The notes under the pieces: generated by a model
Seen by the model: the letters and a program-made list of their open reading frames with translations, nothing else
What the model was told of the DNA's origin: nothing
The model's database searches: none
From: Candidatus Doudnabacteria bacterium
Lineage (GTDB): Bacteria > Patescibacteriota > Doudnabacteria > UBA920
Length of the DNA: 64,000 nucleotides
Assembly (NCBI GenBank): GCA_963788395.1
Contig: CAWBGV010000030.1
Location: 6,954 to 70,953 of the forward strand
Reading direction: 5' to 3'
Part shown: positions 12,510-12,768 of the stretch, one piece after another
How the letters are laid out: every line of letters begins with the position of its first letter
Numbering within the stretch: the first letter of the stretch is position 1
Program-made: the position numbers and the translations under genes

Positions 12510-12537
12510 TTGACAAAAGCCAGACCAATGCTATAAT
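12510..12537 (+). promoter_or_regulatory. Near-consensus extended -10 sigma70 promoter with no ORF behind it
   Basis: TTGACA (12510-12515), 16-nt spacer, TGcTATAAT (12529-12537). Confidence 0.7.
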
Positions 12538-12543
12538 TTTGTT

Positions 12544-12618
12544 ACGGTTATCAGGTGGCCCGCATTCCTTTTGTGGAGTCAAAACAACCTCTCGTATAGA
12601 GAGGTTGTTTTATTTTTT
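12544..12618 (+). ncRNA. Leader or small RNA (~70 nt), antisense to the anticodon arm of the downstream tRNA-like gene
   Basis: Predicted TSS about 7 nt after the -10 element. Positions 12545-12558 pair over 14 contiguous bp with 12704-12717. The RNA ends in a strong intrinsic terminator. No credible ORF. Confidence 0.45.
12581..12618 (+). terminator. Intrinsic terminator or attenuator
   Basis: 13-bp perfect stem AAAACAACCTCTC/GAGAGGTTGTTTT with a 5-nt loop, followed by a T-rich tract TTTTATTTTTT. Confidence 0.75.
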
Positions 12619-12676
12619 CTTTATCTATTTTTTTAATTTTCTTCAGGTGCAATTAGCTATGCTGCGGAAGGAGTCA

Positions 12677-12768
12677 GGAGGTGGAAGTCGCAAGGCGCGA
12701 CCTCCGCCTGATAACCGGATGGCTCCATTGTATGGAGTGTGGTTCGACTCCACCTGCCTCCGCCACCA
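12677..12768 (+). tRNA. Atypical tRNA-like gene: tRNA-Sec-like / allo-tRNA-like 8/4 cloverleaf with anticodon GAU, discriminator G and encoded CCACCA
   Basis: The fold uses every base: 8-bp acceptor, 5-bp D stem with 5-nt loop, anticodon loop CUGAUAA, 19-nt variable arm, 4-bp T stem with a UUCGACU loop, then G-CCA-CCA. Manual fold only; not run through tRNAscan-SE or Infernal. Confidence 0.5.

What the first reader, a model, noticed from the sequence alone, without database searches (positions are those of the whole stretch)
12510..12717. Consensus promoter and leader RNA antisense to the tRNA-like anticodon arm, ending in a strong terminator
TTGACA (12510-12515), a 16-nt spacer and TGcTATAAT (12529-12537) form a near-perfect extended -10 promoter. 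No credible ORF follows it.

The transcript would start near 12544. Its 5' end CGGUUAUCAGGUGG (12545-12558) pairs over 14 contiguous bp (13 Watson-Crick plus 1 G-U) with 12704-12717. That target covers the 5' strand of the anticodon stem, the whole anticodon loop and part of the 3' strand of the downstream tRNA-like gene. The leader therefore displays the cognate AUC codon inside a much longer complement.

Two further complementarities to the same RNA:
- UGGC (12556-12559) is complementary to its GCCA 3' end.
- GGAGUC (12575-12580, repeated at 12671-12676) is complementary to GACUCC in its T arm.

A 13-bp hairpin plus U-tract terminator (12581-12618) separates the leader from the tRNA-like gene, which has no good promoter of its own.

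I see two readings:
- A ~70-nt antisense sRNA that sequesters the tRNA-like RNA, with antitoxin-like logic.
- A cis leader or attenuator that controls read-through or folding. This would resemble T-box codon-anticodon sensing in concept but lacks the T-box conserved elements.

A 14-bp match within ~250 nt is very unlikely by chance.
Basis: partly seen in the sequence, partly recalled or inferred. Interest (0 to 1): 0.8.

Follow-up and report, generated by a model that had tools for sequence, protein, structure and literature searches.

The report
Antisense small RNA targeting unusual tRNA
A short RNA gene sits beside an odd, selenocysteine-like tRNA that reads isoleucine codons and is built to base-pair with that tRNA's anticodon arm. 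The same matched pair recurs with compensating mutations in dozens of distant bacteria, which points to an undescribed RNA-only control, probably a safety catch, on a potentially mistranslating tRNA.

Summary
A 12/12 promoter with an extended -10, a 14-nt stretch complementary to the downstream tRNA's anticodon arm, and a 13-bp terminator lie at the stated coordinates.

The "tRNA-like gene" is an 8/4 allo-tRNA: 8-bp acceptor stem, 4-bp T stem, long variable arm, G73 and anticodon GAU.

The complementarity is conserved and covaries.
- 40 of 46 related 8/4 tRNAs with non-serine anticodons (Patescibacteria, Dehalococcoidia, Solirubrobacterales, metagenomes) have a 15-mer with at most 2 mismatches to the perfect complement of tRNA positions ~26-40 within 400 nt. 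None of 112 control tRNAs does.
- Fifteen intermolecular pairs show abundant double changes (0/500 shuffles reach the observed score).
- G·U mismatches outnumber A·C 31:10.

The partner has its own promoter and terminator. It lies upstream, downstream or on the opposite strand, so it is a separate trans-acting sRNA gene, not a T-box-like leader.

The module is missing from the same syntenic site in the closest relatives and has no conserved protein neighbour.

My best reading, which is inferred, is an antitoxin-like sRNA that sequesters a potentially Ile-to-Ser mistranslating tRNA. I found no prior description in Rfam 15 or in the literature searched.

The parts
12510..12537 (+). Promoter P1 of the small RNA: -35 TTGACA (12510-12515), 16-nt spacer, extended -10 TGcTATAAT (12529-12537)
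   Evidence: 12/12 match with TG. The same TTGAC[A/T]-16/17-TA...T is present in 18/18 Patescibacteria-type modules, 17/18 with the TG extension. It ends 1-9 nt (median 6) before the complement starts.
12544..12618 (+). Predicted ~75-nt small RNA (anti-anticodon sRNA). Start is inferred from the -10 position, end from the terminator.
   Evidence: The fold has the 5' 13 nt unpaired, a weak hairpin, then the terminator: dG -28.8 kcal/mol, z -5.1. No Rfam family reaches threshold. The ends are inferred, not mapped.
12545..12558 (+). Seed: CGGUUAUCAGGUGG, complementary to tRNA nt 28-41 (5' strand of the anticodon stem, the whole loop, and 2-3 nt of the 3' strand). It displays the AUC codon.
   Evidence: The homologous helix covaries across 40 modules and is found in 40/46 related tRNAs versus 0/112 controls.
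12573..12581 (+). Possible second contact: GUGGAGUCA, complementary (9 bp, 2 G·U) to tRNA 44-52 UGGCUCCAU at the base and 5' strand of the variable arm. It can also pair with the T arm GACUCCAC.
   Evidence: In Patescibacteria-type modules, cognate runs average 7.67 versus 5.85 for non-cognate pairings, permutation 0/20000. In the window p is about 0.005 against random windows. The signal is not significant across all lineages.
12581..12618 (+). Intrinsic terminator of the sRNA: 13-bp stem, 5-nt loop, T tract
   Evidence: An equivalent A-tract/hairpin/T-tract terminator is present in all 18 relatives.
12658..12663 (+). TATGCT, a weak -10 at the position where homologues carry the tRNA's own TGnTATAAT promoter (P2)
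   Evidence: Comparison of 18 modules. The consensus scan does not call it.
12663..12676 (+). Pre-tRNA 5' leader TGCGGAAGGAGTCA, homologous to the conserved GCGGAGG motif that is complementary to the tRNA 3' end CCUCCGC
   Evidence: Leader against 3' end: cognate runs average 8.16 versus 6.7 for non-cognate, permutation 0/20000. It covaries (L047 GCCGGAGG/CCUCCGGC; L130 GCCGGGGG/CCUCCGGC). The window copy is the weakest: 5 bp plus a bulge.
12677..12765 (+). 8/4 allo-tRNA: anticodon GAU (12710-12712), G73, encoded CCA, long variable arm. The sRNA target is 12704-12717, with a possible second target at 12720-12728.
   Evidence: ARAGORN structure. The best Rfam match is tRNA-Sec at 33.1 bits, below the 47-bit threshold. 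The eighth acceptor pair is kept in 34/36 relatives (GC 26, AU 8), whereas the alternative fifth T-stem pair forms in 1/36.
12773..12797 (+). Terminator after the tRNA (8-bp stem plus T tract)

Best explanation
The locus is a self-contained two-RNA gene module inserted between housekeeping genes of a Patescibacteria genome.

Gene 1 is a ~75-nt small RNA. It is made from a near-consensus promoter and ended by a strong terminator.

Gene 2 is an 8/4 allo-tRNA with the isoleucine anticodon GAU. It carries serine-type identity features: a long variable arm, G73 and a GGAG acceptor start.

The unpaired 5' end of the small RNA base-pairs in trans with the tRNA's anticodon loop and the 5' strand of its anticodon stem (tRNA 28-41). 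A second segment probably pairs with the base of the variable arm. This opens the anticodon arm, so the tRNA cannot decode and may also be recognised less well by SerRS.

The logic is that of an RNA antitoxin held in excess over a potentially toxic tRNA that would insert Ser at AUC/AUU codons.

Shown here:
- the anatomy of the locus;
- conservation, covariation and strand-specificity of the pairing;
- independence of the sRNA gene;
- the patchy distribution of the module.

Inferred:
- that both RNAs are made with these ends;
- that the tRNA is charged with Ser and is toxic;
- that pairing inhibits rather than assists the tRNA.
For: 1. Pairing is selected. 40/46 8/4 tRNAs with non-Ser anticodons have a 15-mer with at most 2 mismatches to the perfect complement of nt35-9..nt35+5 within ±400 nt. 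The figure is 0/112 for other tRNAs, which include 25 tRNA-Sec and three 8/4 tRNA-Ser(CGA).

2. Covariation. Fifteen consecutive intermolecular pairs are kept in 85-100% of 40 modules with many double changes. The covariation score is 0.618 against 0.226±0.015 in shuffles (0/500 reach it) and 0.08-0.15 when the partner is slid. The codon in the sRNA follows the anticodon (GAU, GAC, GCC, GUC).

3. RNA level and strand. Among mismatches, G·U outnumbers A·C 31:10, p=0.0015.

4. Independent gene.
- It has its own TTGACA/TGnTAnnnT promoter placed so that transcription starts at the seed (18/18).
- It has its own terminator.
- Its position varies: upstream on the same strand (Patescibacteria), downstream on the same strand (Dehalococcoidia, Solirubrobacterales and others), or on the opposite strand (a Solirubrobacterales subgroup).

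5. Specificity. Two modules in one genome (L075) each have their own cognate partner. In L167 the sRNA matches the canonical tRNA-Ile(GAU) over 8 nt only, but its allo-tRNA over 16 nt.

6. Selfish or accessory character. The module is absent from the same syntenic gap in 7 loci of the closest relatives. Neighbouring genes in other genomes are unrelated to each other.

7. Toxicity is plausible. 8/4 allo-tRNAs inserted Ser at Leu codons and killed E. coli (Mukai et al. 2017, PMC5389517). AUU+AUC make up 6.45% of codons in six window genes.

8. The three 8/4 tRNAs that carry a true Ser anticodon lack a partner.
Against: - There is no transcript evidence; both RNA ends are inferred.
- Charging of this tRNA is unknown. 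GAU is itself an IleRS identity element, so it may not mistranslate.
- The direction of the effect (inhibition, maturation or stabilisation) is not shown.
- Unconstrained RNAcofold prefers other pairings in the window pair.
- The second contact is supported only within the Patescibacteria-type set.
- The window's tRNA promoter and leader are weaker than in relatives, so this copy could be decaying.
- The 'Ser-anticodon copies lack a partner' argument rests on only three examples.
- The metagenome pattern preselected GAY anticodons.
Confidence: 0.6

Rival explanations
1. Cis-acting leader or attenuator (T-box-like). The RNA from P1 is the 5' leader of the tRNA transcript. Binding of the tRNA to the nascent leader, or folding of the leader onto the tRNA in cis, sets read-through of the terminator or the folding of the precursor.
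For: In Patescibacteria-type modules the unit lies upstream on the same strand, so read-through transcripts would carry both partners. The window's own tRNA promoter is weak. In downstream-type modules the tRNA has no terminator of its own and would be co-transcribed with the sRNA.
Against: - The same unit lies downstream of the tRNA or on the opposite strand in many lineages.
- Relatives have a separate conserved promoter for the tRNA.
- No alternative antiterminator structure is visible, and there is no T-box or other leader match.
- The terminator is strong: 13-17 bp plus a T tract.
Confidence: 0.1
2. The pairing is functional but not inhibitory. The sRNA would be a guide or chaperone for maturation, modification or cleavage of the allo-tRNA. 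Alternatively it would keep the charged tRNA off the ribosome so that it serves a non-ribosomal aminoacyl-transfer reaction, for example a Fem-type transferase.
For: The covariation shows only that pairing matters. A FemAB-family gene lies 1.7 kb away in the window. A conserved pre-tRNA leader that pairs with the tRNA 3' end suggests unusual maturation.
Against: FemAB and the other neighbours are in the same synteny in relatives that lack the module. Modules elsewhere have unrelated neighbours and no conserved protein partner. No guide-RNA protein-binding motifs are evident.
Confidence: 0.12
3. Roles are reversed. The allo-tRNA would be a sponge or decoy that titrates the sRNA, and the sRNA's real targets would lie elsewhere (mRNAs or the canonical tRNA).
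For: tRNA-derived sponges of sRNAs are known (the 3'ETS of leuZ; from my own knowledge, not tested here). The seed contains a generic Ile codon context.
Against: The seed covaries with the stem of the adjacent allo-tRNA, not with a shared external target. It matches the canonical tRNA-Ile only over the 8-nt loop. The window has no other match to the seed.
Confidence: 0.08
4. A DNA-level repeat or chance: a leftover partial inverted duplication of the tRNA gene, a recombination or att site, or two operator half-sites.
For: tRNA genes are common integration targets. A further imperfect inverted repeat (12515-12531 / 12780-12796) brackets the module.
Against: - Expected chance count is 0.03 per window.
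- 40/46 related tRNAs have the partner against 0/112 controls.
- Complementarity stops sharply at 15 bp and is kept by double changes across phyla.
- G·U tolerance is strand-specific.
- The promoter and terminator are always phased with it.
- No conserved protein is nearby.
Confidence: 0.03

Closest known systems
Allo-tRNAs, 8/4 type (Mukai et al. 2017, Nucleic Acids Res 45:2776; PMC5389517)
   Same: - 12-bp acceptor branch split 8+4, long variable arm, G73/U73.
- tRNA-Sec-like score without a UCA anticodon.
- Non-serine anticodons.
- Reported as toxic missense suppressors in E. coli, and seen near toxin-antitoxin genes.
   Different: - They were reported from Clostridia, Proteobacteria and Acidobacteria. 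Here they occur in Patescibacteria, Dehalococcoidia and Solirubrobacterales.
- The anticodons GAU and GAC dominate this set, partly because of my search pattern.
- No cognate antisense small RNA was described. The words antisense and complementary do not occur in that paper.
RNA-antitoxin toxin-antitoxin systems (type I such as hok/sok; type VIII such as SdsR/RyeA and CreTA). Comparison from my own knowledge.
   Same: - A small, strongly expressed RNA neutralises a harmful gene product by base-pairing.
- Cognate specificity.
- Patchy, accessory distribution.
- In type VIII the toxin is itself an RNA.
   Different: - The presumed toxin is a complete, foldable tRNA, not an mRNA or an sRNA.
- The antitoxin is trans-encoded, with a short 15-nt seed against a structured anticodon arm, rather than a cis-antisense overlap.
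- Toxicity and neutralisation are untested.
T-box riboswitch leaders
   Same: An RNA displays a codon that pairs with the anticodon of a specific tRNA. A terminator follows.
   Different: - There is no Stem I, K-turn, T-box sequence or antiterminator.
- Pairing extends 8-9 nt into the anticodon stem and must unfold it.
- The unit is a separate gene that can lie downstream or on the other strand.
- It does not precede an aminoacyl-tRNA synthetase or amino-acid gene.
Bacterial tRNA-Sec (Rfam RF01852)
   Same: It is the best Rfam match (33.1 bits). It shares the long acceptor stem, the long variable arm and a compact D arm.
   Different: The score is below the gathering threshold of 47. The geometry is 8/4, not 8/5. 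The anticodon is GAU, not UCA.

Membership tests
Allo-tRNA (8/4) | 12-bp acceptor branch made of an 8-bp acceptor stem and a 4-bp T stem | tested here: met
   ARAGORN fold of 12677-12765. In 36 relatives the eighth acceptor pair is kept in 34 (GC 26, AU 8), while the alternative fifth T-stem pair forms in 1.
Allo-tRNA (8/4) | Long variable arm and discriminator G73 or U73 (serine-type identity set) | tested here: met
   The variable-arm helix has 5 pairs in the ARAGORN fold (a sixth, C-G, can be added by eye from the sequence) and G73 is present. The variable-arm helix covaries. Relatives have G or U at position 73.
Allo-tRNA (8/4) | tRNA-Sec-like by covariance model but not a tRNA-Sec; anticodon other than serine | tested here: met
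   RF01852 scores 33.1 bits against a threshold of 47, and RF00005 gives no hit at threshold. The anticodon is GAU.
Allo-tRNA (8/4) | Long D stem with a tetraloop and a 6-bp anticodon stem | tested here: inconclusive
   The D arm can be drawn with a 4-bp stem and a 7-nt loop (ARAGORN) or a 5-bp stem and a 5-nt loop (by eye). The anticodon stem has 4 Watson-Crick pairs plus a C·C next to the loop.
Allo-tRNA (8/4) | Charged with Ser (or Ala) and active in decoding | not testable with these tools
   Known only by analogy with the S. bohemicum allo-tRNAs tested in E. coli (PMC5389517). There is no G3:U70, so Ala identity is unlikely (sequence).
T-box leader | Stem I with specifier loop, conserved T-box sequence, and an antiterminator whose bulge pairs with NCCA | tested here: not met
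   No T-box hit even at E<=10. The fold shows only a weak hairpin plus the terminator. UGGC/GCCA is 4 nt, and most relatives lack an encoded CCA.
T-box leader | Cis position upstream of the regulated gene | tested here: not met
   The homologous unit is downstream or on the opposite strand in many modules.
RNA-antitoxin TA module (type I/VIII-like) | Antitoxin RNA base-pairs specifically with the cognate toxin RNA | tested here: met
   Covariation and cognate-versus-non-cognate tests. This shows the pairing only, not neutralisation.
RNA-antitoxin TA module (type I/VIII-like) | The toxin is harmful when unopposed, and the antitoxin rescues | not testable with these tools
   Only indirect support: toxicity of other allo-tRNAs in E. 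coli and 6.45% AUU+AUC codons.
RNA-antitoxin TA module (type I/VIII-like) | Accessory, patchily distributed, self-contained module | tested here: met
   Absent from the same gap in L001-L007. Neighbours elsewhere are diverse. No hits in viral contigs.
Canonical tRNA-Ile(GAU) | 7/5 cloverleaf with a short variable loop, about 74-77 nt | tested here: not met
   It is 89 nt, 8/4, with a long variable arm. A canonical 74-nt tRNA-Ile(GAU) coexists with a module in L167.

The most novel reading that the evidence does not exclude
This would be a new class of RNA-only toxin-antitoxin or addiction module. The toxin is a complete mistranslating tRNA: a Ser-charged 8/4 allo-tRNA that reads Ile, Val, Gly or Asp codons. 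The antitoxin is a co-evolving small RNA that unfolds its anticodon arm. The module is spread by horizontal transfer across at least three phyla. It might act as a kill-switch, for example causing proteome-wide mistranslation when transcription of the sRNA is shut off during phage infection or loss of the element.
Probability: 0.4. Interest if true: 0.95.

Novelty: new variant of a known kind. Interest (0 to 1): 0.86.

Why it matters
- Allo-tRNAs are natural missense suppressors, and how a cell tolerates and controls them has been an open question since 2017. A dedicated, co-evolving anti-anticodon small RNA would be the missing control element.
- It would be the first small RNA I know of whose conserved target is the anticodon arm of a tRNA.
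- It extends allo-tRNAs to Patescibacteria, Dehalococcoidia and Solirubrobacterales.
- It makes the question directly testable: two short RNAs, clear compensatory-mutation predictions, and a heterologous E. coli assay that already exists.
- It offers a natural, programmable switch for turning suppressor tRNAs on and off in genetic-code engineering.

Tried and rejected
- **Origin contig.** Exact look-up of the window's permease and of its 100% identical database entry found no contig. The origin contig was therefore not retrieved. The organism is placed in Patescibacteria only through named homologues.
- **First viral scan.** The tRNA 3' half found an unrelated phage tRNA-Phe. The family pattern found nothing in viral contigs.
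- **Genome scan.** I reused these as negative controls.
- **First control.** The best local antisense score was confounded by neighbouring paralogous tRNAs. I replaced it with masked, anticodon-anchored run-length and Hamming tests.
- **RNAcofold on the window pair.** It gave a favourable ddG (-16.1 against -6.3±3.3), but through other pairings. I do not use it as evidence.
- **T-arm and GCCA complementarities.** They were not conserved.
- **Second-site test across all lineages.** It was not significant against random windows.
- **Insertion boundaries.** Intergenic sequences of relatives share no recognisable homology with the window, so the boundaries could not be defined.
- **Mukai et al. 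sequences.** The supplementary files are not held.
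Full report
**1. The observation**

The sequence features are as described.
- TTGACA lies at 12510-12515, followed by a 16-nt spacer and TGcTATAAT at 12529-12537. This is the only 12/12 promoter-like site in 11500-13500.
- CGGTTATCAGGTGG (12545-12558) is complementary to 12704-12717 over 14 nt, with one U·G.
- A 13-bp hairpin plus T tract lies at 12581-12618.
- The perfect complement of the target, allowing one mismatch, occurs in the whole 64-kb window only at 12545 and at the tRNA itself. The expected count is 0.03.
- The only ORF after the promoter is a 111-aa TTG frame that runs through the terminator and the tRNA. 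I treat it as spurious.

**2. What the downstream gene is**

- ARAGORN calls 12677-12765 an 89-nt tRNA-Ile(GAU). It has an 8-bp acceptor stem, a 4-bp T stem, a long variable arm, G73 and an encoded CCA.
- Rfam's tRNA model does not reach threshold. The best match is tRNA-Sec at 33.1 bits against a threshold of 47.
- This is the signature of the 8/4 'allo-tRNAs' of Mukai et al. 2017 (PMC5389517). Those were found as tRNA-Sec false positives, carry serine-type identity elements with non-serine anticodons, inserted Ser at Leu codons and were lethal when induced in E. coli.
- In an alignment of 36 relatives, the eighth acceptor pair is kept in 34 (GC 26, AU 8). The pair that a 7/5 fold would need forms in 1 of 36.

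**3. Context**

- The window comes from a Patescibacteria genome. Permease homologues are named Candidatus Doudnabacteria or Patescibacteria.
- The gene order is rpoB, ABC ATPase, ABC-2 permease, then a gap, then a TsaD-like gene, a Mur ligase and FemAB.
- The order from the ABC genes to the TsaD-like gene and the Mur ligase is kept in seven loci from four relatives with 77-79% permease identity; rpoB is seen where the locus reaches that far (L001-L003) and FemAB only in L001. In those loci the gap is 25-100 nt, or holds another gene, and contains no tRNA.
- The ~300-nt cassette at 12502-12805 is therefore a lineage-specific insertion.

**4. Related loci**

- A pattern for the 8/4 skeleton was scanned over species-representative genomes. 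It returned tmRNA 3' domains, Verrucomicrobia tRNA-Sec, and about 25 8/4 tRNAs with GAU, GAC, GCC or GUC anticodons. These came from Patescibacteria, Dehalococcoidia and Solirubrobacterales.
- A narrower pattern returned 47 metagenomic loci.
- In almost all of them, the best antisense match in the whole locus targets tRNA positions ~26-42 and lies 90-230 nt from the tRNA.

**5. Controls and covariation**

| Set | n | Best 15-mer within ±400 nt versus the perfect complement of nt35-9..nt35+5 |
|---|---|---|
| 8/4 tRNAs with non-Ser anticodons | 46 | 40 have at most 2 mismatches (6 have 0, 20 have 1, 14 have 2) |
| Other tRNAs from the same loci | 112 | none has at most 2 mismatches; the mode is 5 |

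*Run-length test.* It gives the same picture: 37 of 47 8/4 tRNAs (44 with non-Ser anticodons plus the three tRNA-Ser(CGA)) have a run of at least 13 nt. Among controls, 3 of 109 do, once two allo-tRNAs that my filter had missed are removed. The three 8/4 tRNAs with a genuine Ser anticodon (CGA) have no partner.

*Covariation.* I anchored 40 distinct modules on codon and anticodon.
- Fifteen consecutive intermolecular pairs are kept in 85-100% of modules, with abundant double changes. One pair, for example, reads GC 12, CG 9, UA 8, AU 6.
- The covariation score is 0.618, against 0.226±0.015 in shuffles (0/500 reach it) and 0.08-0.15 when the partner is slid.
- Pairing drops to chance outside those 15 pairs.

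*Strand.* Among mismatches, G·U outnumbers A·C 31 to 10 (p=0.0015). This is as expected for RNA-RNA pairing in the predicted strand sense.

*Specificity.*
- Cognate pairs average 15.0 paired nt and non-cognate pairs 8.7.
- L075 carries two modules (GAC and GAU), each with its own matched partner.
- In L167 a canonical 74-nt tRNA-Ile(GAU) lies 3.4 kb away. It matches the sRNA over 8 nt only, against 16 nt for the allo-tRNA.

*Caveat.* Modules entered the covariation alignment because a partner had been found. The unbiased census is the safeguard against that selection.

**6. The partner is a gene of its own**

- All 18 Patescibacteria-type modules have TTGAC[A/T], a 16/17-nt spacer and TA...T. 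Seventeen have the TG extension. The promoter ends 1-9 nt (median 6) before the complement starts.
- Each has a short hairpin or linker, then a 10-17-bp A-tract/T-tract terminator.
- In the AT-rich metagenomic downstream-type modules (L154, L142, L152, L134), the same unit follows the tRNA with its own TTGAC-type promoter and extended -10. In Dehalococcoidia L076 it follows the tRNA with its own TTGACA-17-TACATT promoter.
- In one Solirubrobacterales group it lies downstream, behind a TGnTAnnnT -10. The architecture there is seed, GGGG...CCCC hairpin, terminator. In another group the same architecture is on the opposite strand, ~90 nt upstream.
- A unit that keeps its promoter, seed and terminator while changing place and strand is a trans-acting sRNA gene, not a leader.
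- The window sRNA (about 12544-12618) folds with its first 13 nt unpaired.
- No Rfam family covers it, nor the units in ten other loci.

**7. Lesser contacts**

- In the Patescibacteria set, a segment just 5' of the terminator (consensus GGnACC) is complementary to tRNA ~44-52, the base of the variable arm.
  - Cognate runs average 7.67 and non-cognate runs 5.85 (permutation 0/20000).
  - In the window this is GUGGAGUCA (12573-12581) with UGGCUCCAU (12720-12728).
  - Across all lineages the signal is not distinguishable from random windows. I rate it as suggestive.
- The second GGAGUC (12671-12676) belongs to a conserved pre-tRNA leader, GCGGAGG, which is complementary to the tRNA's 3' end and covaries with it.

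**8. Neighbours**

- Genes flanking 13 other modules are unrelated to each other. They include a glycerate-kinase-like protein, a PBP, FolD, an IS481-type integrase, POR, RNase HII, a methyltransferase and DUF559.
- There is no conserved protein partner. No module was found in viral contigs.

**9. Mechanism**

*Shown:* two adjacent RNA genes; a selected, strand-specific 15-bp intermolecular helix that must open the anticodon stem and cover the whole loop; independence of the sRNA gene; an accessory distribution.

*Inferred:*
- The sRNA, made from the stronger promoter, captures the allo-tRNA through its free 5' end. In Patescibacteria it also captures the 5' strand of the variable arm, which is the main SerRS identity element. 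This would keep the tRNA from decoding.
- Unopposed, a Ser-charged GAU tRNA would compete at AUU/AUC, which make up 6.45% of codons here.
- This is antitoxin logic. The direction of the effect and the charging identity are untested.
- The cis-attenuator, guide/chaperone, reversed-role and DNA-repeat alternatives are weighed in the rival list.

**10. Novelty**

- Full-text searches for allo-tRNA with antisense, and for related term sets, found no description of such a partner.
- The original paper and the 2020 review do not mention one.
- The tRNA is a new member of a known kind, in new phyla.
- The tRNA-plus-anti-anticodon-sRNA module appears undescribed. If it is a toxin-antitoxin pair, it would be a new variant in which the toxin is a tRNA.

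Noticed in passing
window 12663-12676 with 12757-12765; L032, L047, L130, L141, L153, L161 and others: The 5' leader just upstream of the allo-tRNA (GCGGAGG or variants) is complementary to the tRNA's own 3' acceptor strand, discriminator and first trailer bases, and it covaries with them. Cognate runs average 8.16 against 6.7 for non-cognate, permutation 0/20000. It could mask the acceptor end or steer processing of the precursor. The window copy is the weakest.
   Followed up: partly
window 13105-14405 (- strand): The Mur ligase gene is broken by at least three frameshifts, with a garbled stretch containing stop codons in the middle and a frame change near 14100. Orthologues in four relatives are intact at 433-451 aa. 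It is either a pseudogene or a run of local assembly indels.
   Followed up: partly
window 12515-12531 and 12780-12796: A 17-nt, 88% inverted repeat brackets the whole module. The left arm lies in the spacer of promoter P1 and the right arm is the 3' half of the tRNA terminator. It could be a split ancestral terminator, the ends of an element, or chance. L167 shows a similar spacer/terminator resemblance, while L141 and L153 do not.
   Followed up: partly
L156 and L164, about 100 nt after the first sRNA unit: A second sRNA-like unit (promoter, a different anti-anticodon seed, hairpin, terminator) follows the first, with no matching tRNA in view. These may be orphan 'antitoxin' copies. L075 and L090 each hold two complete modules.
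   Followed up: no
L020, L064, L085: 8/4 tRNAs that carry a true serine anticodon (CGA), found in Kofleriaceae, Isosphaera and Myxococcales genomes, have no antisense partner nearby. This fits the idea that only mis-decoding copies need one. There are only three cases.
   Followed up: partly
window 18701-18714: A 14-nt exact copy of the tRNA's 3' part (ACTCCACCTGCCTC; 12747-12760) sits just after the ORF that ends at 18699 and forms part of a terminator-like hairpin. BLAST E is 0.066, so it is probably chance. The genes in between are conserved housekeeping genes, not an island.
   Followed up: partly
L050, L066, L100 (Verrucomicrobia tRNA-Sec loci): A few genuine tRNA-Sec genes show weaker antisense matches to their anticodon region within ~200 nt: scores of 25-31 with mismatches, and up to 14 nt contiguous in L100. 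I did not examine these further.
   Followed up: no
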